Positions 5,590 through 17,266 of a stretch of 17,266 nucleotides of DNA are shown in pieces; positions within the stretch are counted from its first letter, which is position 1, and every line of letters begins with the position of its first letter. The stretch lies in the IMG/VR virus record IMGVR_UViG_3300020577_002861. The stretch is one strand, 5' to 3'. The notes under the pieces were generated by a model. It was not told where the DNA came from. It made no database searches and saw nothing but the letters and a program-made list of their open reading frames with translations. Position numbers and translations under genes: made by a program. The stretch is from a virus.

Positions 5590-5802
5590 TTAAACATCAG
5601 AATCGCCGTAGCCTTCCAGCTTCTCTGCTGGTTCTTCGCTATCGTAGTGGTCATCAAAATTTGAATTTGGTTCATATGTATCGGTTTCAGTTAGAATATA
5701 CCCCGCTGGGATACTGAACTTAAACACTTGGTTCTCGGCCAATATCTCTCCCGTCTCTAGGTCTATTAGCCTTTTTTGTTCCACTGTCTTCGTGTCGAAC
5801 AT
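5590..5802 (-). CDS. hypothetical acidic protein. Start placed at the ATG at 5802, since the GTG at 5841 in the track falls inside the promoter
   Basis: The ORF is open from 5841, but a near-consensus sigma70 promoter (TTGACA-17-TATACT) occupies 5832..5860. This predicts a transcription start near 5824, so the first usable start is the ATG at 5802 (MFDTKTVEQKRL...). Confidence 0.5.
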   Translation of the reverse strand: MFDTKTVEQKRLIDLETGEILAENQVFKFSIPAGYILTETDTYEPNSNFDDHYDSEEPAEKLEGYGDSDV

Positions 5803-5831
5803 TTTGAGTTGGTAATATTTAACTGTTGAGA

Positions 5832-5860
5832 AGTATACCACTGATTAGTATATTTGTCAA
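5832..5860 (-). promoter_or_regulatory. near-consensus sigma70-type promoter TTGACA-N17-TATACT
   Basis: Minus strand: TTGACA (5860..5855), an exact 17-nt spacer, TATACT (5837..5832). It lies directly downstream of an intrinsic terminator and upstream of the ATG at 5802. Confidence 0.5.
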
Positions 5861-5871
5861 CCCCCTATAAG

Positions 5872-5901
5872 AGCAATAAAAAGAGCCGTTTCCAGCTCTT
5901 T
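5872..5901 (-). terminator. rho-independent terminator after the zinc-ribbon gene
   Basis: Minus strand: stem AAAGAGC / GCTCTTT around an 8-nt loop, followed by TTATTGC, which extends the U-rich tract. Confidence 0.5.
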
Positions 5902-7282: not shown

Positions 7283-7581
7283 GGTTCTACATTAACATTT
7301 ATCCTGCCTTGAAATCTAGGACTAGTATAGCTTTGGGTATAGGTGCATATTTCTGTGTCCCTATCATCTCCCATTATTAAGACCGAACTGTTTCTAGTTA
7401 CAATGATATGTGGCTTGCAGTTCTCAACTGCTGGACATAATGCACATATCTGCTGAAAGAAACCGCCTAATACTTGCTTCTCTGGCGCATCTTCAAGAGG
7501 TAAAATTGCCCACAAATCTAACTGTTCAACATCTCCTATTTGAAACTTGTAACTAGTTTTTACATCCTGGTTTAACTCCAT
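7279..7581 (-). CDS. hypothetical Cys-containing protein
   Basis: 100-aa ORF. Its start overlaps 29 nt of the upstream HNH gene and its stop overlaps the next ATG. It contains CALCPAVENC. Confidence 0.4.
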   Translation of the reverse strand: MELNQDVKTSYKFQIGDVEQLDLWAILPLEDAPEKQVLGGFFQQICALCPAVENCKPHIIVTRNSSVLIMGDDRDTEICTYTQSYTSPRFQGRINVNVEP

Positions 7582-7879
7582 AACTTCTCAATCTACTATT
7601 TTTAATAAAACCCTCTAACAACATTCTCCCTAGGTGCGTTAGTTTTCCTGTATATTTATCATGTAACGCAATGTGACATTCCCCTGCTCCAACCAACACC
7701 CCATTGTTTATCGGATCATTCTCACCTCCACTATTTAAAGGTACTAGGTGATGAGCCTGTAAACTGTTGGGACACATAGCCTTCCCACACATTCTGCATA
7801 CTGTATCGCCAAACATTTTTCTGCTTTCATCAATTACTGTCGTTCTAAAGAACTGCTTTTGTTCATGGCTTCTTGGCAT
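7553..7879 (-). CDS. HNH endonuclease
   Basis: 108 aa with CRMCGKAMCPNSLQAHHLVPLNSGGENDPINNGVLVGAGECHIALHDK, a canonical CxxC...HH...N...N...CH...H pattern. Confidence 0.75.
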   Translation of the reverse strand: MPRSHEQKQFFRTTVIDESRKMFGDTVCRMCGKAMCPNSLQAHHLVPLNSGGENDPINNGVLVGAGECHIALHDKYTGKLTHLGRMLLEGFIKNSRLRSYGVKPGCKN

Positions 7880-8427: not shown

Positions 8428-8682
8428 CTAACGAGTCCCAACTGCATTGTTCTTATACCAACAGGTACTACCATATTCATCACCCTTGATGACTATAGAG
8501 TTCTCATAAGTCGTTTCGTGAGATGGTCGACAAGTAGTAAAAAACCTACAATGGGTGCATACTTCCATTAAGGTATTTAGTATTTCTTGTCTATTTGGTC
8601 GGGGAAGATTTTGAGTCTCGAACTCACCTCTGAGATAAAACAAACTTACAGCAACTTTTTCACCCGTTGGCGTTGTCAACAT
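8428..8682 (-). CDS. small Cys-rich, putative zinc-binding protein
   Basis: 84 aa with CTHCRFFTTC...STCW. Confidence 0.45.
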   Translation of the reverse strand: MLTTPTGEKVAVSLFYLRGEFETQNLPRPNRQEILNTLMEVCTHCRFFTTCRPSHETTYENSIVIKGDEYGSTCWYKNNAVGTR

Positions 8683-9513: not shown

Positions 9514-10188
9514 TTAAATTATATCTATGCTGTGCTTGGGCTTCGTAATCCCGCCATACTTACCAAACCTATCGTTCCTAACCCAATTAAAAAAGGCGAG
9601 GCGGAAATCTTTATACTTAGTTTTGTTTGCCTGTATATAACCTGTAAAATCTTCTAGGGCTGTAACAACATCTTTGCCTGGGTTTAGATCTTTTGCTCTT
9701 AAAAGTATTTCCTCTTTATTTTCAATAAATATCCTCTCAGAGTTTATGGGTTTGTTATATATTATAATATCATTATTATCATTATTATCATTATTATCAT
9801 TATTGTTAGTGTCTTGTCTGCTGTCTTTCTGCTGTCTTTCTGCTGTCTTGTCTGTTGTCTTACCACCTTGATATTCGTTATAGTTTACTATTGTAATTAT
9901 TGAAGAAACAGAGTTTTTCTGCTGTCTTATCTGGGACTCATTCTCGAGCCATGTGAGGTAACGGCGAACCTTATCCCTACTCCACCTCCATCTCTTGGAT
10001 AAAGACACCTCACTCCACCCGACTTCCCCTCTTTCAACCTTGAGGATATTTCCCCTTACGGATATGATTCCACTCTTATGATTAGCTAATAAAAGTAAAT
10101 CAACCCAGGCCTGTGCCTTGGTAAACGGTTCTGATAACCAAATGCTGTTATCCATTATTTTTCTATGTAACCATATCCAACCTTCCAT
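9514..10188 (-). CDS. replisome-organizer / replication-initiator-like protein: an N-terminal winged-helix-like domain, a low-complexity NND linker, and a C-terminal domain
   Basis: 224 aa. The N-terminus (WLHRKIMDNSIWLSEPFTKAQAWVDLLLLANHKSGIISVRGNILKVERGEVGWSEVSLSKRW) is typical of phage replisome-organizer N-domains. The linker DTNNNDNNDNNDNND is encoded by tandem DNA repeats. Confidence 0.65.
   Translation of the reverse strand: MEGWIWLHRKIMDNSIWLSEPFTKAQAWVDLLLLANHKSGIISVRGNILKVERGEVGWSEVSLSKRWRWSRDKVRRYLTWLENESQIRQQKNSVSSIITIVNYNEYQGGKTTDKTAERQQKDSRQDTNNNDNNDNNDNNDIIIYNKPINSERIFIENKEEILLRAKDLNPGKDVVTALEDFTGYIQANKTKYKDFRLAFFNWVRNDRFGKYGGITKPKHSIDII
9762..9806. repeat. tandem 9-bp AT-rich repeat (ATTATTATC, about 4 copies) inside the initiator gene
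   Basis: cattattat is repeated. It encodes the NND repeats of the linker. Confidence 0.6.
9811..9861. repeat. tandem 11-bp repeat CTGCTGTCTTT (3-4 copies), iteron-like, inside the initiator gene
   Basis: ctgctgtcttt occurs twice exactly and twice degenerately, adjacent to the AT-rich 9-bp repeats. The 11-bp period is not a multiple of 3. Confidence 0.55.
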
Positions 10189-10361
10189 TAAAGCCTCTCC
10201 TTGGATAATAATTTATAAAGTTTTGCTATCCCCTTAAAATCTTCTTTTTCTAGTAGTTCTAAAATTTCCGCAAGTTCTTTTACCGAAATATCAAAGTTTC
10301 CATATCCAGACACGAAGAACCCTGCTTCATGTAGATTTCTTGCTTTTTCTAGGTATTTCAT
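10188..10361 (-). CDS. small helical protein (57 aa), translationally coupled to the initiator gene
   Basis: Below the track's length cutoff. MKYLEKARNLHEAGFFVSGYGNFDISVKELAEILELLEKEDFKGIAKLYKLLSKERL. Its TAA overlaps the ATG of the downstream gene (TAATG at 10186..10190). Confidence 0.4.
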   Translation of the reverse strand: MKYLEKARNLHEAGFFVSGYGNFDISVKELAEILELLEKEDFKGIAKLYKLLSKERL

Positions 10362-10386
10362 AAAGGTTTTCTAATAAAGAACCTCC

Positions 10387-10416
10387 CACCTATGAAACAT
10401 TGACGGAACATAGGTG
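10387..10416 (-). promoter_or_regulatory. hairpin with an 8-bp perfect stem (CACCTATG / CATAGGTG, 14-nt loop) about 26 nt upstream of the small ORF, next to a GGAGG
   Basis: Read directly from the sequence. Confidence 0.35.
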
Positions 10417-10710
10417 AGAGAAGGCAAAGTCCTATAAGGCTCTAGCTTCTGCTGGTTCTGTGGAAATATTTTTAGTCAATGTTGTCATAAAAATAAGCTA
10501 CTCGCTTTTTAGAAAAAAGTCAAGAGGTTTTGTAAAAAGATCCTGGTGGACATTTTGGAGAGAGACCTCCCCTCCCCAGGGTATCACCAGATGCTATCAG
10601 GCGAGTTTAAAGTGCCCTAGAACGAACGAAAATATGGAAGTGGTACATTGTACCTAGGAATCGTTTTAGAGCATTTTAAAGTCCCTGGTATAGTTCCTTT
10701 GACATTGATT

Positions 10711-10736
10711 AAAAAGAGAGGTAAATGCCCTCTCTT
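10711..10736 (-). terminator. rho-independent terminator (minus strand only)
   Basis: Minus strand: stem AGAGAGG gcattta CCTCTCT followed by TTTTTAATC. On the plus strand no U-tract follows. Confidence 0.5.
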
Positions 10737-10940
10737 CGCAAATAGTTATTTGAGCCACTACGCACAAAAGTCTTTTGCGTTAATTCAGCTTACACTTAGG
10801 GGAAGAGTTTGGCAATAAAAAACTCCTATATTGTGTTTTCAGTTGAGTGTTTAGGTCATCTGTTCGTAAACAACATAGGAGCACACAAAATTATCAGACG
10901 CGGGTTAGTTTAAAAGCAGCCCCGCAGTATCGGTGTACTG
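10711..10940 (-). ncRNA. candidate non-coding transcript of about 225 nt, bracketed by a promoter-like element and a terminator
   Basis: It runs from the predicted start just downstream of TTGCCA-17-TATATT (10974..10946) to the terminator at 10736..10711. No ORF longer than 18 codons. A Bacteroidetes-type TAATTTTG box also occurs at 10893..10886. Confidence 0.25.
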
Positions 10941-10945
10941 CTTTT
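10912..10945. terminator. bidirectional hairpin terminator
   Basis: Stem AAAAGCAG / CTGCTTTT with an inner CCG/CGG stem. U-rich tracts follow on both strands (TTTTAATAT on plus, TTTTAAAC on minus). Confidence 0.5.
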
Positions 10946-10974
10946 AATATACACCCCAACAATAAAAATGGCAA
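10946..10974 (-). promoter_or_regulatory. sigma70-like promoter-like element TTGCCA-N17-TATATT (copy 1 of a duplicated element)
   Basis: -35 at 10974..10969, -10 at 10951..10946, spacer exactly 17 nt. It is embedded in the direct repeat GGGTGTATATTRAAAAG. Confidence 0.35.
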
Positions 10975-10998
10975 GTAGCTTTGAGGAGACTACCTGCC
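10961..10998 (-). terminator. rho-independent terminator, first after the holin gene
   Basis: Minus strand: stem GGCAGGTAG / CTACTTGCC with one mismatch and an 11-nt loop, followed by ATTTTTATT. It lies 38 nt downstream of the holin stop. Confidence 0.45.
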
Positions 10999-11020
10999 AT
11001 AATCTTATACCTTCTTTTTC

Positions 11021-11049
11021 AATATACACCCAGTTTTATTTTCCTGCAA
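11021..11049 (-). promoter_or_regulatory. sigma70-like promoter-like element TTGCAG-N17-TATATT (copy 2), overlapping the holin stop codon
   Basis: -35 at 11049..11044, -10 at 11026..11021, spacer exactly 17 nt. It shares GGGTGTATATT with copy 1. Confidence 0.3.
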
Positions 11050-11314
11050 TAGCCTTAGAAACCTCGGTATCTTTTAGAAGTGCTAGGTATACAACCTGAG
11101 AAGCGCCAAAGATTACGCTGAACCTAGCAAGTAAGTCTTGCCAGTCCATGATTGGTTTTGTACTTACTTCTGCAAACAGTGCTATAGCAAGGGCTAATCC
11201 ACCAGCTACAAGTCTTGTTGCTAATGCACCTTCTAGCTTTAAGAATCTCTTAGCGAGATCTACAATTAGAGGAAGCACTATTCCCGCTAACAATGTTACT
11301 GTGTTTACATCCAT
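11036..11314 (-). CDS. holin, about three TM helices
   Basis: 92 aa with hydrophobic segments VTLLAGIVLPLIVDL, LVAGGLALAIALFAEV and FSVIFGASQVVYLALL. It lies immediately downstream of the lysin. Confidence 0.55.
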   Translation of the reverse strand: MDVNTVTLLAGIVLPLIVDLAKRFLKLEGALATRLVAGGLALAIALFAEVSTKPIMDWQDLLARFSVIFGASQVVYLALLKDTEVSKAIAGK

Positions 11315-11345
11315 AAAAATAAAATAATAAATAAATTATCGAATC

Positions 11346-12320
11346 CTAATTTCTTTTAGAAGGAATCTTTGCAAGTAATTCCCTAAGCCATTTAACAAAT
11401 CTTGCAAGGATTGTAACAGTTGGATCAGGATTAACTCCGCCTCCTCCGCTTGCTTGGCAAGCTCTAAGTTCTTCTTGAAGTCGTTCATTGTTCTTGGTGA
11501 GAACTTCAATAGCACTCTCCTTTTTGCTAAGGTCTTCTTCCAAGTTCTCCTGAGTAGCTGCTGATGCAGCTTTGAAATCAGAAAAGTCAGCATCAAGTTT
11601 ATCTGCCCTAAGAAGTAAATCTTGCTTCTCTTGAGTGCATACTGCAAGCTTAGTATTTAGATCTGTTATAGACCCATTAAGGCTCGAAATTTGACCATCT
11701 TTTTCATTGAGTAGACCCTTAACCGTATTAAGTTCTGTTTGAAGTGCATTTATTTGTCTTCGTAATTCTTCGATCATTTTGTCTGCTGACTTAAAAAGTA
11801 ATTTTAATGCTATTGGATTTCCTTTAGGTATTCCAGTCCAACTAGAACTTTGATACCAACTCTGTAATCCATTCTCATTCTTAGAAACCCAAACCTCTCC
11901 TGTGTCTACAAATCTACCGCCATCACACAAAGCATTGTTTCCACCTCCATTTCTTAGCCATCTAACAATGCAAGTCCAGTGAAGATGAGGTTGTGCCGTT
12001 CCGTTACTATCTCCGCTCTTAGTTATGACCTGACCTTGTTTATAGAAAGCTCCCACTTTAGGTAAATTAGGTGTGTTTATGTGAACGAATTGGTGTTGGA
12101 AGTGAGCCTTATTACCATCTTCCATTTCGTAAACCTTGGGACAGTCTAGTATAAAACTATCCTTCCCATTGGTGCTTAGGATCGTTCCGTCATCAGGGGC
12201 TACAAATGGAAAGTAGACCATGCCCTGGTGTCCATAATCTGTACCCGCATGAGGTACCGTTCTGAAAGATTGGTAATCAGCAAAATTACTGGTTATATGG
12301 TGATCGGTGCACTTTATCAT
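11346..12320 (-). CDS. M23-family metallopeptidase lysin with a C-terminal coiled coil and a basic amphipathic tail
   Basis: 324 aa. HAGTDYG (HxxxD) and HLHW (HxH) are M23 zinc-ligand motifs. The C-terminal ~150 aa form a heptad-rich coiled coil ending in GGGGVNPDPTVTILARFVKWLRELLAKIPSKRN. Confidence 0.75.
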   Translation of the reverse strand: MIKCTDHHITSNFADYQSFRTVPHAGTDYGHQGMVYFPFVAPDDGTILSTNGKDSFILDCPKVYEMEDGNKAHFQHQFVHINTPNLPKVGAFYKQGQVITKSGDSNGTAQPHLHWTCIVRWLRNGGGNNALCDGGRFVDTGEVWVSKNENGLQSWYQSSSWTGIPKGNPIALKLLFKSADKMIEELRRQINALQTELNTVKGLLNEKDGQISSLNGSITDLNTKLAVCTQEKQDLLLRADKLDADFSDFKAASAATQENLEEDLSKKESAIEVLTKNNERLQEELRACQASGGGGVNPDPTVTILARFVKWLRELLAKIPSKRN

Positions 12321-13159: not shown

Positions 13160-14998
13160 CTATGCAGTATTGAAAACTATCCCGTCTAAACTAATCCATG
13201 CGGTACTACCAACCTGAGCCGTAACGGCTCCTGCCGATGTAATTCTCACCTGTCCATAAAGATCATTAGAAGAAACCGTAAATATCCATTGCTCAGTTGG
13301 TCTAAATCCCGTAGGAAGCGTAAAAATAGTAGCGTTATATGCCGATCCGTTTTTTACCAATCCCCTAAGATGTACGAACCCCATACTATCTTTCATGTAT
13401 CCACAGGTTGTATACCCACTACCATAGTTAACCCAACTATTAGAGAAAGTAGGTGCTGTCCAAGAAGGCTGTGCTACTTGCAATAGCCCACCTCTACTTG
13501 AATCGTAGGTTGTTCCTATTGCTATACCATCTTGTGTCCAGTCCATTAAAGGTACACCACGATCTAGCGTTCCCTCTAGTATAAATGACTCTAACTTATC
13601 ATAAATTCTAACTTCTATACTGTAGGACTTTGTAGTAGTAAACCCTGATCCGCCCAAGTCCCCATCAATATGGGCCGAGTAACTTAATGTTCCAGAGGTA
13701 TCTGTTAATGTTATAGAGTTCCATGACTGAGCAGCCCAAGAGGCCGTAGTTTCCTTGTATCTATAGTGGGCTGTTATCGTGTTCTGCACCCCTGCAACAC
13801 CACCTCCAAAGTAATTTTTCCAATAACTTCCAGCTACTACAAGGGTTGAAAGCGCGTCTATTCTATTATCCCTAGTAATTGTTACGGCTGATAAAACAGG
13901 TGTCGTATAGCTAACCATAGAAGTCACGCTTACTGGTGTAGCTGCTGTGGTTAATGCACGAGAGTCGTAAGCAGTCATTGTCGTTGCTACTGCTGTTACA
14001 TTATCAATGTCGATGTCTACCGTAGACCCTGCTGAGTAGTTACCGTCTGTTGCCTGTGAGCCATTACCAAACCTATACTTAACTGCCGTAGCACTGTTTA
14101 ATGCCACCATTTTATTGGCTGCCGTAATGGTTCCCCTAAGTTTAGAATACCCACTAATTATCTTTTGAGCAGAACCTGTTAAGGTGTTTGTATATGATGT
14201 CGCAAGTGCGTTTGCATATTTATCAGTAACGCTTATTGTCTTGTCTACAGAAGCTACTGTATATGTTGTAAATGTAGGGGCGTTAGTTGCTGGATTAACA
14301 GAGGTTGTTCCTGCCGTGTCTCTGTTCCCTCCTACCTGAACCGTATAACCAGCGTCTGAGTATGTCTGTATTCTTACATAGTTTGCCACCGATGTGACGC
14401 TAGTCATCTGAGCATACATTGCTGTGTCATAGGCCCCTCCTAGGGTTATCGTAGCACTTGACGTTTGTCCGTGATCCGTAGTTCTTATTAAGGTTGAGTT
14501 AACATAGAGGCTTGATCTGACATACATATTTCCAGGGTTAGAAAGCGTCAAAGCAAGGTTATTGCCTATTGTAAAATCGGTCGAACTAGTTACATAGGCT
14601 TCTCGTGGAATTGTGTACAAGGTTACCGTTGCTCCTGCGCTACCATTTTTAGGCCCATATCCCCCAGAGTTATTTAATGCCGTTCCAGAACTTATGTATA
14701 TTTGCTTTGTACCATCTGCATTGTGAGAAATTGTCTTCGCAACCGTTACTATCGCTATTGGTGTGGTTTCTGGGTTCATATCCAGGTATGTTGTAGCCGT
14801 AGCACTCGTTCCGTCTACCGTAATACTGTGGTTAGTTGCGTACCCTTCTGAGTTAATGGCGGTGCTGTATTTACGAACGTAAGCTGTAGCCGTAACATCT
14901 GAGGTATTATTTGCAATATTTACATTGTATTCTGACCATGTTATGTAATACTCATATCTACTTGACCATTGTTCTACGCTTCCTGTTATCGTTGCCAT
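13160..14998 (-). CDS. tail fiber / receptor-binding structural protein
   Basis: 612 aa, very rich in Thr/Ser/Ala/Gly and beta-like. It follows the upstream structural gene after 1 nt. Confidence 0.7.
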   Translation of the reverse strand: MATITGSVEQWSSRYEYYITWSEYNVNIANNTSDVTATAYVRKYSTAINSEGYATNHSITVDGTSATATTYLDMNPETTPIAIVTVAKTISHNADGTKQIYISSGTALNNSGGYGPKNGSAGATVTLYTIPREAYVTSSTDFTIGNNLALTLSNPGNMYVRSSLYVNSTLIRTTDHGQTSSATITLGGAYDTAMYAQMTSVTSVANYVRIQTYSDAGYTVQVGGNRDTAGTTSVNPATNAPTFTTYTVASVDKTISVTDKYANALATSYTNTLTGSAQKIISGYSKLRGTITAANKMVALNSATAVKYRFGNGSQATDGNYSAGSTVDIDIDNVTAVATTMTAYDSRALTTAATPVSVTSMVSYTTPVLSAVTITRDNRIDALSTLVVAGSYWKNYFGGGVAGVQNTITAHYRYKETTASWAAQSWNSITLTDTSGTLSYSAHIDGDLGGSGFTTTKSYSIEVRIYDKLESFILEGTLDRGVPLMDWTQDGIAIGTTYDSSRGGLLQVAQPSWTAPTFSNSWVNYGSGYTTCGYMKDSMGFVHLRGLVKNGSAYNATIFTLPTGFRPTEQWIFTVSSNDLYGQVRITSAGAVTAQVGSTAWISLDGIVFNTA

Positions 14999-14999
14999 T

Positions 15000-16148
15000 T
15001 TAGTTGTTTATAACAATATAAGCCCCTGTGCTAGTAGGGATAATTCTAAGTGCCTTAGCCGTATTATCGTATCTCTGTACTTGTAGCAAGTCCTGCACTA
15101 TTCCACTTGTTAATTTGGCACTATCTTTTGAAACCAACATCATTACTTTGTCGCTTCCACTTGAGGTGTCATAAACTGCCAAACTTGTATTGTCTAGCGT
15201 GCTTTTAAAAGGGTCAGTTAAACTTGTAATAGAAAATCCATCTTTGTCAAAAATGAAGTTAGCCCCGTATACCTCGTTAGGTGCTTGAATCCAACCATTA
15301 GTATCTCCCAATTTAAAGACTAAGTCACTAACCGTTATGTTCTCACTAGATCCGTTTTCTATTCTTATTGTCGTTGCAGTAGCAGTCGCAACCACTTGAT
15401 ATTTATAAGTAGTCCAGCTAGCACTTGTAGGAATATTAATAGTTCCTACAACTCCCGTTATTGTTAAATCTGAGGCAGCGTCACTAAAATATCTCATGTA
15501 AAACGTGTAGGTTCTTCCTATTGTTGTTCTTACTGTAGTTGTCAAATATTGGTTATGTAGAGCTATCCCACTCCCACTTTCTGTATGTATCTTTACGTCA
15601 CTTCCAGTGTCAATAGTTCCATTATTTCTTGAATCTACTAATACTGCGTCATCATCATAAATTTGCCATTCTCTAATATTTCCTTTTAATCCGCACGAGT
15701 TTTGTAAGGCGTTTACACCACCCGTTTGACTGACCGATAAGCTTAAGCTAGTAGCTGTCTGCTCAAGCGTGGTCACATCGTCTTGAATGGTAGTTATATT
15801 GCTTTCGTTTACATCAATCCTGTCTACGGCTGTGTTTACAGCACTTGTTAGTGCCTCTACAGAACTATTAATAGAATCGGCAGTTATGGTTATCAAAGCA
15901 CTAGTTTCGGTGATTGTATAATAGTTTTCGTCTAGGTCGGTAACAATAGAGCTTAGTTCCCCTTGCTGAGTACTTGTTGCCAGTTCAGAGTGAAGTATCC
16001 TTCTGTTTATTCCTCCTATGTTTATTTTCCAGTCACTTTTTATCTGTGGAGTAGAAGTGCCTAGCTCCATAGGTCTTTCGTTAAATAAATCTAAATCTGT
16101 TTTTACCTCGTTGACTTTTAATTCAACATTTTCATAACTTGTTGGCAT
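15000..16148 (-). CDS. tail fiber / tail-associated structural protein (N-terminal coiled coil, C-terminal beta-rich domain)
   Basis: 382 aa. Its ATG overlaps the upstream TAA by 1 nt (TAATG). Confidence 0.65.
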   Translation of the reverse strand: MPTSYENVELKVNEVKTDLDLFNERPMELGTSTPQIKSDWKINIGGINRRILHSELATSTQQGELSSIVTDLDENYYTITETSALITITADSINSSVEALTSAVNTAVDRIDVNESNITTIQDDVTTLEQTATSLSLSVSQTGGVNALQNSCGLKGNIREWQIYDDDAVLVDSRNNGTIDTGSDVKIHTESGSGIALHNQYLTTTVRTTIGRTYTFYMRYFSDAASDLTITGVVGTINIPTSASWTTYKYQVVATATATTIRIENGSSENITVSDLVFKLGDTNGWIQAPNEVYGANFIFDKDGFSITSLTDPFKSTLDNTSLAVYDTSSGSDKVMMLVSKDSAKLTSGIVQDLLQVQRYDNTAKALRIIPTSTGAYIVINN

Positions 16149-17266
16149 TATATTGTCCCTATATTTGTTGATCCTAATGCCCTTACATCTAGGCCTAGGT
16201 AGTAAAGAATCCAGTTACCAGCACCCCTTATTTCAATACTTAAGGACTTAAACTCTGGGTCTTCAAAGCCCGTTAATTGATGTCTATGCCATGAGTATCC
16301 AGCAGGGGTATCTGTAGTATTTGTCCAGTTAGTGTAGGTTGTAGCCCCATCCTTTGAATAGTTCACTTCTAGCCCTCCATTGTCAGAATATAGTTTTAGG
16401 TGTCCCCCCAGAATCTGTTTCTCTATCTCTGGGCCTAACGAACCCTTAACATTGCTGTAAGAGAACTCTAAATGCTTTGTTCTATAGAAAGACTCAACTG
16501 GGGTTCCATCGTCTGCGTAGACCCCGTCTACATCAATTTTGTACATCTTCCATGAGTCTCTTGAACCGACTACTAATTGTTCATTACCATTTCCATCAAT
16601 CCATGTTGTAAAGCTAGTTCCAGCCCCTATTGCAGGGTAGGTATCTGCCTTCCATGTGCCTTGTCTAAAATCGTAAACAAGTATCACGTCTTCCAATGTT
16701 TCTCCACCTGTAGTTCCACTTAAGTTTCCAACTGCTAAATAGTATTTATCGTCCAGTACACCAGCAGCAGCTATACTAAAGCCTGTTCCTGAAATCTTGT
16801 TAAATAGTCCCTCCCCAGTAAAACTGTTGTCAATAAGTCTTGATATTTTAACTGGATAAGACTCTCCTTCCGAATATCTAAAAATACCCTGTCTACCTAG
16901 CCAGAAAGCGTTTCCCTGGTTAACCTGCAAGGTTCTATGTGCACTACATCCAAATCCAAACTTCTTTCTTAATGCGTTTGTTTCTGTATCAAAAATATAC
17001 ATTGATTCTCCATCGTGGGCGATTATTGGTGCGCTCTCTCCAAGACTCTTGATTGCAGTTCCTGGCATATCTAAATCAGCCCAGTTATCACCAACCCTAA
17101 AAGTGTCCCCATCCCAAGTCTCGTCTATTGTAGTATCTAGGGTAACAGTAGTTACACTCACATAGGCAAGTATAGAGGCCTCCGTATGATCTGCGAGGTT
17201 ATATACCTTTTTCCCTACATGAGCAGCTGTAAACAAGTTTGCACTTGATACTAGCGAGGTTCCCGT
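16148..17266 (-). CDS. virion structural (tail/baseplate-like) protein, 5'-truncated by the window end
   Basis: The frame stays open from the track's TTG at 17236 up to 17266 with no stop, so the true start lies outside the window. The sequence is rich in Gly/Ser/Thr/Asp/Trp and beta-like. Confidence 0.65.
   Translation of the reverse strand, partial: TGTSLVSSANLFTAAHVGKKVYNLADHTEASILAYVSVTTVTLDTTIDETWDGDTFRVGDNWADLDMPGTAIKSLGESAPIIAHDGESMYIFDTETNALRKKFGFGCSAHRTLQVNQGNAFWLGRQGIFRYSEGESYPVKISRLIDNSFTGEGLFNKISGTGFSIAAAGVLDDKYYLAVGNLSGTTGGETLEDVILVYDFRQGTWKADTYPAIGAGTSFTTWIDGNGNEQLVVGSRDSWKMYKIDVDGVYADDGTPVESFYRTKHLEFSYSNVKGSLGPEIEKQILGGHLKLYSDNGGLEVNYSKDGATTYTNWTNTTDTPAGYSWHRHQLTGFEDPEFKSLSIEIRGAGNWILYYLGLDVRALGSTNIGTI

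What the first reader, a model, noticed from the sequence alone, without database searches (positions are those of the whole stretch)
10362..11035. Structured non-coding gap of about 670 nt between the late and early modules, with three tandem terminators and duplicated promoter-like repeats
No credible ORF lies on either strand here, and the region is visibly more GC-rich than its flanks. Reading down the minus strand past the holin stop, the order is as follows. A hairpin terminator at 10998..10961. A bidirectional terminator at 10945..10912. A third terminator at 10736..10711. Two copies of a direct repeat, GGGTGTATATTRAAAAG, each forming a TTGC(C/A)(A/G)-N17-TATATT sigma70-like element (11049..11021 and 10974..10946). 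A 6+1+6 inverted repeat, GGTACATTGTACC, at 10642..10654. A C-rich tract, CCTCCCCTCCCC, at 10567..10578. An 8-bp stem hairpin at 10387..10416. Every gene on both sides is transcribed in the same direction. This gap is therefore a good candidate for the physical genome end, packaging signal or terminal repeat junction. It could also be a regulatory hub separating the late and early transcription units.
Basis: partly seen in the sequence, partly recalled or inferred. Interest (0 to 1): 0.65.

Follow-up and report, generated by a model that had tools for sequence, protein, structure and literature searches.

The report
Phage late-early junction with structured leader
The 674-base gap is the control region between a phage's lysis genes and its replication genes: it is probably not a genome end, and its conserved core is a previously uncatalogued folded RNA leader (three helices plus a long-range pairing that co-varies in five related phages) just ahead of the replication genes.

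Summary
The gap (10362..11035, all genes on the minus strand) is real and non-coding. It holds about 5x more hairpin+U-run structures than the rest of the window. It is not GC-rich (0.390 vs 0.383). Comparison with about 10 related metagenomic phages shows a mosaic junction. The middle is window-specific or replaced by other genes in relatives. Two parts are conserved. (a) A sigma70-like promoter over the holin stop codon is followed at once by a terminator. (b) At the early end lies a block of hairpin/terminator, then a promoter (-35, 17 nt, -10, 6 nt, ATG; identical geometry in 5/5), then a ~125-nt leader. The leader folds as a three-way junction (93.8% of cells paired, 7/29 pairs with double changes, invariant G.U pairs on the gene strand only). 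Nine to ten bases at its 5' end are perfectly complementary to the loop of the last hairpin in five phages, with five different sequences. It is followed by a U-run about 20 nt before the first replication gene. Best reading: a cis-acting attenuator-type leader RNA. A genome end or packaging site is not supported. No Rfam family matches.

The parts
11036..11314 (-). Holin-like small membrane protein (92 aa), last gene of the late/lysis cassette
   Evidence: ORF. It lies downstream of the M23-peptidase endolysin 12320..11346. It is 41% identical to the L067 counterpart and 91% identical to P0013.
11021..11049 (-). Promoter-like element P1 overlapping the holin stop codon: TTGCAG, 17 nt, TATATT
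   Evidence: Sequence confirmed. The same architecture occurs in L087, L067 and L074 (TTGCAG-17-TATATT) and in L069 and L100 (TTGAC[A/T]-16-TATACT, 11/12 match), although their holin C-termini differ. Function is inferred.
10961..11000 (-). T1: intrinsic-terminator-like hairpin (11-bp stem plus UUUUUAUU) ending the late operon
   Evidence: dG -16.8, z -3.7. It is conserved in L087-L093. L067 and L074 have a different hairpin plus U-run at the same place.
10946..10974 (-). Promoter-like element P2 (TTGCCA, 17 nt, TATATT); its -35 lies in the 3' arm of T1
   Evidence: Best sigma70-like match in the gap (10/12). In L087-L093 the equivalent is TTGCCA-17-TAAGCT.
10797..10949 (-). Window-specific 153-nt insert bounded by GTGTA repeats. 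It carries hairpin T2 (10947..10910) and hairpin T2b (10882..10822 plus UUUUUUAUU to 10813)
   Evidence: Absent from L087-L093, which join 10950 directly to about 10800. No other match in any held locus.
10707..10800 (-). 94-nt block ending in terminator T3 (10737..10713 plus U-run), 97-99% identical in L087-L093; candidate small RNA
   Evidence: it is more conserved than the neighbouring coding DNA (85-92%). T3 has dG -13.2 and z -3.8.
10598..10687 (-). Window-specific long imperfect hairpin; its tip region holds the palindrome GGTACATTGTACC (10642..10654)
   Evidence: dG -27.6, z -4.3. No counterpart in any relative.
10533..10590 (-). Hairpin plus U-run (T4') just upstream of the early promoter; it contains the C-rich tract
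   Evidence: dG -23.8, but z only -1.6. In the same position L067, L069, L074 and L100 have a hairpin with co-varying outer stems (AGCTGGT, ACCAGGA, AGCAGGA) and a conserved loop ATAACTTCCCCAAGAAG plus T-run. L102 has AGAGAGG..CCTCTCT plus T-run.
10495..10523 (-). Early promoter P_E: -35 TTGACT (10523..10518), 17-nt spacer, -10 TAGCTT (10500..10495); predicted +1 is the A of ATG at 10488
   Evidence: The geometry -35 / 17 / TAnnnT / 6 nt / ATG is identical in all five leader-bearing phages. The start site is predicted, not measured.
10432..10488 (-). Possible leaderless mini-ORF (18 codons plus stop). It contains the 5' pairing segment S2a AACATTGAC (10483..10475)
   Evidence: There are 18, 18, 16, 16 and 13 codons in the five phages. 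The peptide is not conserved and the frame shifts across an indel. Only the ATG and an open frame are shared.
10378..10459 (-). Three-way junction of the leader RNA: P1 (10459..10454 with 10383..10378), P2 (10449..10420), P3 (10420..10383). The P3 loop carries S2b GTCAATGTT (10404..10396), the exact complement of S2a. A U-rich tail follows
   Evidence: RNAalifold. Pair counts. S2 statistics. MFE fold of the window leader. The model R1 scores the window at 103 bits.
10188..10361 (-). First early ORF (57 aa, no known family), overlapping the start of the DnaD-like replication protein (10188..9514)
   Evidence: In L067, L069 and L100 the gene after the leader is a replication initiator of a different family or with a different N-terminal domain.

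Best explanation
The gap is the late-to-early transcription junction of a ~38-kb tailed phage. Shown: reading the gene strand, the lysis operon ends in a hairpin+U terminator (T1). Next comes a variable, recombination-prone stretch. In this phage it is non-coding and full of hairpins. In relatives it holds other genes or is absent. A hairpin+U-run follows, then a sigma70-type early promoter. Inferred: that hairpin insulates the early promoter.

Inferred from conserved geometry: transcription starts at an ATG (10488). The first ~125 nt form a structured leader RNA. Shown by covariation: the leader has a three-way junction (P1 enclosing P2 and P3). Bases +6..+14 pair with the 3' side of the P3 loop.

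P3 is a 12-bp G+C-rich hairpin followed by U's, about 20 nt before the first replication-module gene. No promoter-like element was seen in the roughly 20 nt between P3 and that gene. The replication genes must therefore be read through P3.

Proposed mechanism (inferred): P3 plus the U-run is an attenuator. On the nascent RNA the 5'-segment:loop helix forms before the 3' arm of P3 is made. That helix then hinders or delays closure of P3 and favours read-through. Whatever occupies the 5' segment lets P3 fold and terminate. Candidates are a ribosome on the leaderless mini-ORF, a protein, or another RNA. The element would thus gate early replication genes.
For: Gene context: tail, M23 endolysin and holin genes lie upstream; DnaD-like, Erf and NinG genes lie downstream.

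Mosaic map.

Conserved leader: five independent phages carry it (window, L067, L069, L100, L102).

Three-way junction: RNAalifold predicts P1, P2 and P3, and 7 of 29 pairs keep pairing through double changes. 93.8% of cells are paired, against 41-59% when partners are slid. The covariation score is 0.31 against 0.14 or less, and 0-1 of 500 shuffles reach it. There are 20 G.U cells, including two pairs that are invariant, which would be A.C on the other strand. The fold is therefore specific to gene-sense RNA.

Long-range pairing: the pairs are AACATTGAC/GTCAATGTT, AACATTCAC/GTGAATGTT, AACATTTGC/GCAAATGTT, AACTTTTGGA/TCCAAAAGTT and AATTCTGGA/TCCAGAATT. Each is a perfect 9-10-nt complement with shuffle P of 0.0002-0.003. 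The spacing to P3 is constant (53-56 nt). The loop partner always sits 1 nt from the 3' arm.

Folding order: on RNA truncated before the P3 3' arm, this helix is in the MFE fold in 5 of 5.

Promoter: the geometry -35/17/-10/6/ATG is identical in 5 of 5. A second terminator plus TTGACA-17-TGnTATACT unit at 5901..5832 shows the phage uses such units.

Terminator signature: P3 has dG about -17 to -18.6 and z -5.7, and is followed by GUUCUUUAUU, GUUUUU or UUUCUU in all five.
Against: There are only five sequences, all from one clade. Window and L067 are close in the leader.

There are no transcript data. The start site, the termination at P3 and the translation of the mini-ORF are all predictions.

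The -10 hexamers are weak (TAGCTT, TAATTT). The host is unknown, and none of the 33 genes has a Shine-Dalgarno sequence.

The U-run after P3 is interrupted, and part of it is used by P1. P3 may therefore not terminate at all.

The loop pairing does not overlap the P3 stem in a conserved way. Competition with P3 would be kinetic or steric, not classical antiterminator pairing.

The mini-ORF peptide is not conserved, and a 13-18-codon open frame is not rare in A+T-rich DNA.

A phage with a Rep protein 57% identical to that of L100 has a different leader (L107). The element is therefore not obligatory for this Rep family.
Confidence: 0.55

Rival explanations
1. The leader is a free-standing small RNA of about 120-125 nt, running from the promoter at 10523..10495 to the P3/U-run terminator. 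It would act in trans. The variable 5'-segment/loop pair would be an intermolecular, phage-specific contact: dimerisation, or riboregulation of the replication operon of co-resident genomes.
For: It has a promoter, a compact fold and a terminator-like end, which is the anatomy of an sRNA. The pairing segment differs in all five phages while 8 of the 11 P3 stem pairs never vary. That pattern fits selection for distinct specificities. The only Rfam similarity, though below threshold, is to a prophage sRNA (PMC4829319).
Against: No promoter-like element was seen in the roughly 20 nt between P3 and the first early gene. At least some transcripts must therefore read through, so the RNA is also a leader. 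Intramolecular pairing is sterically feasible and is favoured by proximity. No trans target is known. Five variants in five sequences can also arise by drift with compensation, as seen in P2.
Confidence: 0.15
2. The folded leader is a cis-acting element that does not terminate. It would instead modify RNA polymerase (processive antitermination, as HK022 put RNA does). Alternatively it would stabilise or translationally tune the early mRNA, for example as a 5'-end-sequestering fold that protects against 5' exonuclease, or as a platform for SD-independent ribosome loading.
For: Like putL, it sits just downstream of the early promoter and is built on two adjacent stem-loops (PMC9378689). P1 uses part of the 'U-run', which weakens the terminator reading. 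The 5' end is tied into the fold. No gene in the phage has an SD, so structure-based control of initiation is plausible.
Against: It has no sequence similarity to put or to any Rfam family. The hairpin+U signature after P3 is kept in all five. Apart from the terminator-like hairpin at 5901..5880, which has its own promoter right after it, no strong candidate (short hairpin directly followed by a U-run) stands out on the gene strand in the 4.5 kb downstream; my crude scan lists only long-hairpin hits of -10 to -20 kcal/mol inside coding sequence there.
Confidence: 0.17
3. The gap contains the physical genome end (cos site, pac site or terminal-repeat boundary). The hairpins and repeats would be packaging signals.
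For: All genes point one way, and this is the largest intergenic region in the window. Several short relative contigs end within a few hundred nt after the holin gene (L070, L072-L074).
Against: Long contigs of five lineages cross the junction. The L067 genome assembles as a circle whose overlap lies about 2.4 kb upstream of the endolysin gene, just before a tail-protein ORF. Junction content is not conserved: it is 75 nt in L075 and L101, and other genes occupy it in L087-L093. The conserved parts are explained by RNA-level covariation with strand-specific G.U pairs. An HNH gene lies about 9 kb further on in the relative; from general phage knowledge this is a common neighbour of cos-type terminases. 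Contig breaks are expected at a mosaic junction where strains diverge.
Confidence: 0.05
4. The two 9-mers are inverted DNA binding sites for the replication initiator (an origin or operator). They would co-vary with the initiator's DNA-binding domain rather than pair as RNA.
For: The element always precedes a replication-initiator gene. The initiator N-terminal domains differ among the phages while the 9-mers differ too.
Against: The half-sites are about 70 bp apart, and one lies inside the loop of a 12-bp hairpin, always 1 nt from its 3' arm. Window and L067 have unrelated initiators (E = 2.3), yet their 9-mers differ by one compensated base. The 9-mers form a point-mutation series within the conserved leader block, while similarity ends just after P3. 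The surrounding helices show RNA-type covariation with G.U pairs.
Confidence: 0.05

Closest known systems
Transcription attenuators: leader RNAs that end in an intrinsic terminator whose folding is pre-empted by an upstream segment (e.g. the pT181/pIP501 rep leaders and leader-peptide attenuators)
   Same: It lies between a promoter and a replication-initiator gene. It has a G+C-rich hairpin plus U-run just before the gene. An upstream segment pairs with the terminator region. A short ORF lies in the leader.
   Different: The upstream segment pairs with the loop of the terminator hairpin, not with its stem. No counter-transcript promoter was seen. The mini-ORF would be leaderless, and its peptide is not conserved. 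None of this has been tested experimentally.
IncI-alpha / IncB plasmid repZ/repA leaders (pseudoknot between a hairpin loop and a distal sequence, leader peptide repY, antisense Inc RNA). Recalled from established literature; reviewed in e.g. PMC8053102
   Same: A long-range loop-to-linear pairing and a short leader ORF lie upstream of a replication-initiator gene.
   Different: There the loop's partner lies next to the rep ribosome-binding site and activates translation, and the leader ORF is translationally coupled to rep. Here the partner is the 5' end of the RNA, about 55 nt upstream of the hairpin. The mini-ORF stops about 70 nt before the rep start.
HK022 putL/putR RNA (PMC9378689)
   Same: A cis-acting folded RNA made of adjacent stem-loops, encoded directly downstream of a phage early promoter.
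   Different: put is about 70 nt and has no closing helix, no loop-to-5' pairing and no terminator-like end. There is no sequence similarity. Its activity depends on E. coli RNAP beta'.
Rfam RF02589 Spy779816 (Spy_sRNA779816, an 89-nt sRNA of S. pyogenes prophage 370.3 between int3 and SPy_0938; PMC4829319)
   Same: It is the only Rfam model with any similarity. It covers the same ~85 nt in L100 and L102. It is a prophage RNA at the edge of the early/lysogeny region, ending in a C/G-rich terminator hairpin.
   Different: Scores are 32.8 and 31.2 bits against a gathering score of 67. The first helix of the model is not formed. The window copy is not detected even at E up to 10. The function of that sRNA is unknown.
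Flavivirus xrRNA (three-way junction with a 5'-end pseudoknot)
   Same: The topology is alike: a three-way junction whose 5' strand is tied to the fold by a pseudoknot.
   Different: It comes from a eukaryotic RNA virus. The pairings and conserved junction nucleotides differ, and it blocks Xrn1. The resemblance is recalled, not tested.

Membership tests
Rfam RF02589 (Spy779816 sRNA) | Covariance-model score at or above the curated gathering score (67 bits) | tested here: not met
   32.8 bits (L100) and 31.2 bits (L102). No hit in the window at E up to 10.
Rfam RF02589 (Spy779816 sRNA) | Both model helices formed | tested here: not met
   The alignment marks non-standard pairs across the first helix and part of the second.
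Any Rfam 15 family | Match at gathering threshold anywhere in the window or in the relatives' junctions | tested here: not met
   0 matches at gathering score in the whole window. (E-value searches of the window gap and of L067, L069, L100, L102): only matches far below each family's gathering score.
Intrinsic (Rho-independent) terminator | G+C-rich hairpin immediately followed by a U-run on the transcribed strand | tested here: met
   T1, T2b and T3 are clear. For P3 the stem is met and a U-rich tail (GUUCUUUAUU, GUUUUU) is kept in 5 of 5, but it is interrupted. Actual termination was not testable.
Sigma70-type promoter | -35 TTGACA-like, 16-18-nt spacer, -10 TATAAT-like | tested here: inconclusive
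   P_E has a -35 matching 4-6 of 6 bases (5 of 6 in the window), a 17-nt spacer in 5 of 5, and a -10 of TAnnnT only. P2 scores 10/12. The overall count of matches is not above shuffles. Support comes from conserved geometry, not from match score.
H-type pseudoknot / loop-to-5' pairing | Hairpin-loop bases pair with a distal single strand, and the pairing is kept by compensatory change | tested here: met
   Five different perfect 9-10-nt complements at conserved positions. Shuffle P is 0.0002-0.003 each.
IncI-alpha/IncB-type rep pseudoknot control | The loop partner lies next to the rep start/RBS, and the leader ORF is coupled to rep | tested here: not met
   The partner is at +6..+17 of the RNA. 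The mini-ORF stops at +40..+57, about 70 nt before the rep ATG.
HK022 put-type antiterminator RNA | About 70 nt, two stem-loops just downstream of the early promoter, acting on RNAP | tested here: inconclusive
   The position and the adjacent stem-loops are met. There is no sequence similarity, and the extra P1 and S2 helices differ. Activity was not testable.
Riboswitch aptamer | Conserved unpaired junction or loop nucleotides that form a ligand pocket | tested here: not met
   The junction J1/2 varies (AGCA, AUA, UACA, CACA, AAU) and J2/3 and J3/1 are 0 nt. No Rfam riboswitch hit.
Genome terminus (cos/pac/DTR) | Assemblies end or repeat at the site; the site is conserved among relatives; it lies next to the packaging genes | tested here: not met
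   Contigs cross the site. The circular overlap of L067 lies about 2.4 kb upstream of the endolysin gene, just before a tail-protein ORF. Junction content is variable. An HNH gene lies about 9 kb away. Physical ends are not testable without reads.

The most novel reading that the evidence does not exclude
The 5'-segment/loop pair may be a specificity code rather than a mere intramolecular clamp. The attenuated ~125-nt leader RNA of one genome would pair, loop to 5' end, with nascent leaders of sister genomes. This would set replication-gene expression in a phage-specific way. It would be an RNA 'incompatibility/immunity' determinant carried on a sense RNA, with both partners on one molecule. 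The pairing sequence would diversify between close relatives while the rest of the hairpin stays frozen.
Probability: 0.12. Interest if true: 0.8.

Novelty: new variant of a known kind. Interest (0 to 1): 0.55.

Why it matters
As a gap with terminators and promoters, this is the ordinary late/early junction of a modular phage genome. What is new is the leader. It is a compact RNA fold (three-way junction plus a co-varying 5'-to-loop pairing). No Rfam family matches it. It is conserved across phages whose neighbouring genes have been swapped, and in the three relatives whose next gene could be classified it sits directly in front of a replication-initiator gene; in this window a 57-aa ORF of no known family comes first. 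If it is an attenuator or RNA switch, it offers a simple, testable model for three things: how phages of an SD-less host time the onset of replication, how a leaderless start codon could be coupled to termination, and how module boundaries are kept while the flanking genes recombine. It also corrects the genome-end reading, which would have misdirected wet-lab mapping.

Tried and rejected
(1) tRNA/tmRNA scan of the window: none.

(2) Rfam at gathering and at permissive E-values: nothing credible.

(3) DNA similarity to 50,697 GenBank phages, near and distant modes: no match.

(4) Exact-pattern scans for the P3 stems in the viral, metagenome and genome collections: only the L067 contig plus chance hits in G+C-rich coding DNA. 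A scan for the conserved T4 loop gave two chance hits.

(5) Covariance model R1 searched over 82 loci (0.8 Mb), including 66 IMG/VR loci with DnaD-like genes: no further copies. None in L107 either.

(6) Coding explanations for the gap were rejected. No PHROG hit for any ORF. No remnant of the relatives' reverse-strand 97/101-aa gene, HTH gene or Cys-rich ORF. The mini-ORF peptide is not conserved.

(7) Classical antiterminator (upstream segment pairing with the terminator stem): extension of S2 into the P3 5' arm is seen in some sequences but is not conserved.

(8) Riboswitch: rejected, because the junction nucleotides are not conserved.

(9) Host identification: not achieved. The tail protein has only 24-31% matches, to Bacillus and Streptomyces phages. 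Rep homologues at about 40% are in Pediococcus and Brochothrix prophages. Yet none of the window's genes has an SD.
Full report
CONTEXT

The window is a whole 17,266-nt JGI metagenome contig (P0001). Every credible gene is on the minus strand. Read in gene order, the genes are:
- tail proteins (17236..13160, PHROG 372)
- two small membrane or coiled-coil proteins
- an M23-peptidase endolysin (12320..11346)
- a 92-aa holin-like protein (11314..11036)
- the 674-nt gap
- a 57-aa ORF (10361..10188)
- a DnaD-like replication protein (10188..9514)
- further early genes, including an Erf-like annealing protein and NinG

No gene has a Shine-Dalgarno sequence; the regions upstream of start codons are A/T-rich. 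No GenBank phage is similar at the DNA level.

CHECKING THE OBSERVATION

The gap is non-coding. It has no gene-strand ORF of 40 aa or more. No ORF on either strand has a PHROG hit. tblastn finds no remnant of the genes that relatives carry here.

The named hairpins exist and fold much better than shuffles:
- T1: -16.8 kcal/mol, z -3.7
- T2: -16.2 kcal/mol, z -4.8
- T3: -13.2 kcal/mol, z -3.8

The repeat and both TTGC..-N17-TATATT elements are present.

Three points need correction.
- The gap is not GC-rich (0.390 against 0.383 for the window).
- The gene strand holds more hairpins than listed. There is a 12-13-bp hairpin plus UUUUUUAUU at 10882..10813. There is a ~100-nt imperfect hairpin at 10687..10598 that contains the palindrome. 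There is a hairpin plus U-run at 10590..10533 that contains the C-rich tract.
- The '8-bp hairpin' is a 12-bp stem at 10420..10383.

In a crude scan of my own, 6 of 32 gene-strand hairpin+U hits fall in the gap, which is 3.9% of the window.

RELATIVES AND THE MOSAIC MAP

Protein searches with the endolysin, the holin and a Rep protein, followed by contig look-ups, gave about ten related lineages. blastn of the window against them shows the following.
- 12308..10950 (endolysin, holin, T1) matches L087-L093 at 85-92%.
- 10949..10797 is a window-only 153-nt insert bounded by GTGTA. It holds T2 and the 10882 hairpin.
- 10800..10707 (ending in T3) is 97-99% identical to L087-L093, which is more conserved than the coding DNA.
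- 10706..10489 is window-only.
- 10488..10377 matches L067 (78%) and L069 (73%), even though the next gene differs.

At the same junction the relatives differ widely.
- L087-L093 carry a reverse-strand 97/101-aa gene and an HTH gene.
- L067 and L074 carry a 76-aa Cys-rich ORF.
- L069, L100 and L102 have only about 240 nt.
- L075 and L101 have 75 nt.
- In L095 the early genes are inverted.

The interior of the gap is therefore a recombination-prone, dispensable stretch. The palindrome, the C-rich tract, T2 and the second repeat copy are not conserved.

WHAT IS CONSERVED

(a) A promoter over the holin stop codon. A sigma70-like element overlaps the holin stop codon. It is TTGCAG-17-TATATT in the window, L087, L067 and L074. 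It is TTGAC[A/T]-16-TATACT in L069 and L100, whose holin C-termini differ. A hairpin plus U-run follows within about 25-45 nt. I cannot say whether this makes a tiny RNA, is a promoter-proximal terminator, or is fortuitous.

(b) The early-end block. A hairpin plus T-run is followed by a promoter and a leader. In L067, L069, L074 and L100 this hairpin has co-varying outer stems (AGCTGGT, ACCAGGA, AGCAGGA) and a conserved loop, ATAACTTCCCCAAGAAG. In all five phages that carry the leader (window, L067, L069, L100, L102) the geometry is exactly the same: -35 (TTGAC[A/T] or TTTACT), 17 nt, -10 (TAnnnT), 6 nt, ATG. The predicted transcript therefore begins with AUG. A second unit of terminator plus TTGACA-17-TGnTATACT at 5901..5832 shows that this phage is organised in such units.

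THE LEADER RNA

RNAalifold on the five sequences predicts a three-way junction: P1 (6 bp) encloses P2 (4+8 bp) and P3 (11-12 bp). Seven of 29 pairs are kept through changes on both sides.

Pair counting gives the following.
- 93.8% of cells are paired, against 41-59% when the 3' partners are slid by 1-3 columns.
- The covariation score is 0.31, against 0.14 or less for the slid controls.
- Only 0-1 of 500 shuffles reach the observed values for cells with double changes, for covariation and for percent paired.
- Twenty cells are G.U, including two pairs invariant in all five. On the other strand they would be A.C, so the fold belongs to the gene-sense RNA and not to DNA or an antisense RNA.

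The 3' side of the P3 loop is perfectly complementary to bases +6..+17 of the predicted RNA in every phage, each time with a different sequence:
- window: AACATTGAC / GTCAATGTT
- L067: AACATTCAC / GTGAATGTT
- L100: AACATTTGC / GCAAATGTT
- L102: AACTTTTGGA / TCCAAAAGTT
- L069: AATTCTGGA / TCCAGAATT

Each match has a shuffle probability of 0.0002-0.003. The distance to P3 is 53-56 nt. The loop partner always ends 1 nt before the 3' arm, with 4-6 nt on its 5' side. That asymmetry is what a helix stacked on the 3' arm of P3 would need; this is a geometric inference.

P3 itself is almost invariant (8 of 11 pairs never vary). The exception is a compensated change at its top, CCTATG/CATAGG versus CCTGT/ACAGG. 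P3 is followed in all five by a U-rich tail, then 15-25 nt, then the first early gene. In L067, L069 and L100 that gene is a replication initiator, each of a different family or with a different N-terminal domain. In the window it is a 57-aa ORF of no known family, whose end overlaps the start of the DnaD-like replication gene. In L102 the contig ends after 22 codons, so the gene is unclassified.

A mini-ORF of 13-18 codons starts at the 5' AUG and stops in or just before P2. Its peptide is not conserved, and its frame shifts across an indel.

MECHANISM

Shown: the fold, the long-range pairing, the conserved promoter geometry and the position before the replication genes.

Inferred: the start site at 10488, and termination at P3. 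The argument runs as follows.
- No promoter-like element was seen in the roughly 20 nt between P3 and the first gene, so the early operon must be read through P3.
- When the RNA is truncated just before the 3' arm of P3, the 5'-segment:loop helix is part of the minimum-energy fold in 5 of 5. It can therefore form first.
- I propose that it delays closure of P3 and so favours read-through.
- Occupancy of the 5' segment would let P3 fold and terminate. The occupant could be a ribosome on the leaderless AUG, a protein, or another RNA.

Alternatives that keep the RNA but change its job:
- a free sRNA acting in trans
- a put-like modifier of RNA polymerase (PMC9378689)
- a stabilising or translation-tuning 5' fold

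The data cannot separate these.

GENOME-END HYPOTHESIS

Long contigs of five lineages cross the junction. The 38,171-nt L067 contig has its 30-nt end repeated 188-217 nt from its start. This implies a roughly 217-nt terminal overlap, which is the signature of a circular assembly of about 37.95 kb. The join lies about 2.4 kb upstream of the endolysin gene, just before a tail-protein ORF. In that genome an HNH endonuclease gene lies about 9 kb downstream of the leader. From general phage knowledge, such genes often flank cos-type terminases. Several short contigs do end a few hundred nt after the holin gene, but that is expected where strains diverge. I rate a terminus in the gap at about 5%. 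Only read-start data can settle it.

COMPARISON WITH KNOWN SYSTEMS

No Rfam family reaches its threshold. The only similarity is to RF02589, at 32.8 and 31.2 bits against a threshold of 67. It appears in L100 and L102 only, and the model's first helix is not formed. That RNA is an 89-nt sRNA of unknown function encoded beside the integrase of S. pyogenes prophage 370.3 (PMC4829319). I treat it as a lead, not as membership.

Functionally the closest kinds are rep-leader attenuators and the IncI-alpha/IncB rep pseudoknot. The pairing partners and the ORF coupling differ from both. It is not a riboswitch-like aptamer, because the junction nucleotides vary.

VERDICT

The gap as such is ordinary. 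The conserved leader with its co-varying 5'-to-loop pairing is a new RNA motif of a known general kind. Its support rests on five sequences from one clade and on no expression data.

Noticed in passing
window 5832..5901 (minus strand): A second terminator-plus-promoter unit. The hairpin AAAGAGC..GCTCTTT plus TTTATTG is followed by TTGACA-17-(TG)TATACT, the best promoter match in the window (11/12). The listed ORF 5590..5841 (GTG start) overlaps the promoter, so its real start is probably the ATG at 5802.
   Followed up: partly
window, all 33 minus-strand genes: No gene has a Shine-Dalgarno sequence. The upstream regions are A/T-rich with recurrent TTATTA / TTACTTATTA motifs 8-20 nt before the ATG, yet the promoters look sigma70-like (TTGACA/TATAAT type). 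The host was not identified. Distant protein relatives are in Bacillus, Streptomyces and Pediococcus phages or prophages. A Pfam Slr1353_N domain occurs in L100 and L107.
   Followed up: partly
window 10707..10800; L087 4389..4478; L089 2562..2655: A 94-nt non-coding block ending in terminator T3 is 97-99% identical across L087-L093, while the flanking coding DNA is 85-92% identical. In those relatives it directly follows TTGCCA-17-TAAGCT, so it could be a ~70-nt small RNA. In the window it is separated from that promoter by a 153-nt insert.
   Followed up: partly
window 10797..10949: A 153-nt window-specific insert bounded by the short direct repeat GTGTA (10952..10948 and 10800..10796). It contains two strong hairpins. 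No match in any held locus. The origin is unknown (indel by microhomology, or a small mobile element).
   Followed up: partly
L087 4552..5358; L089 2715..3020: The closest relatives (holin 91% identical) carry, at the same junction, a reverse-strand 97/101-aa gene of unknown family and a forward 142-aa HTH protein that starts 5 nt after a TATAGT (possibly leaderless). A TTGTCA-17-(TG)TATGAT promoter faces the other way. It looks like a divergent regulatory switch that the window phage lacks.
   Followed up: partly
L067 3752..3982; L074 about 7360..7590; window 8428..8682: L067 and L074 carry a 76-aa Cys/His-rich ORF inside the junction. It is weakly similar (tblastn E 3e-5) to the window's 84-aa early ORF 8428..8682, which suggests a small paralogous family of zinc-binding-like proteins.
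   Followed up: no
L069 7509..8432 vs L100 2648..3382: The two Rep proteins share a 91%-identical C-terminal 115 aa (Phg_2220_C) but have unrelated N-terminal halves. This is a domain swap right behind the conserved leader.
   Followed up: partly
L107 1..376: A Rep protein 57% identical to that of L100 is preceded by a different leader (terminator, TTGACA-17-TAGTTT). Its 5' end (AUAAAAAUUAA) is complementary to the U-rich tract after a hairpin. The hairpin loop (UAAACUCG) is complementary to the 8 nt just before the start codon. This is a single sequence, so chance is not excluded.
   Followed up: partly
L067 4030..4056; L069 7291..7325; L074 7636..7658; L100 2438..2476: The hairpin upstream of the early promoter has co-varying outer stems (AGCTGGT/ACCAGCT, ACCAGGA/TCCTGGT, AGCAGGA/TCCTGCT) around a conserved interior ATAACTTCCCCAAGAAG, which contains an inner CUUC/GAAG stem. 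The L074 contig ends exactly inside it.
   Followed up: partly
window 9514..10188 (protein residues about 127-141): The DnaD-like protein contains a low-complexity Asn/Asp repeat (NNNDNNDNNDNND) between its conserved N-terminal domain and its C-terminal part.
   Followed up: no
L068/L106 (IMGVR_UViG_3300049844_000042): The 30-nt end of the 38,171-nt contig recurs at positions 188-217 of its start, implying a roughly 217-nt direct terminal overlap about 2.4 kb upstream of the endolysin gene, just before a tail-protein ORF. The contig is therefore a complete circular assembly of about 37.95 kb.
   Followed up: yes
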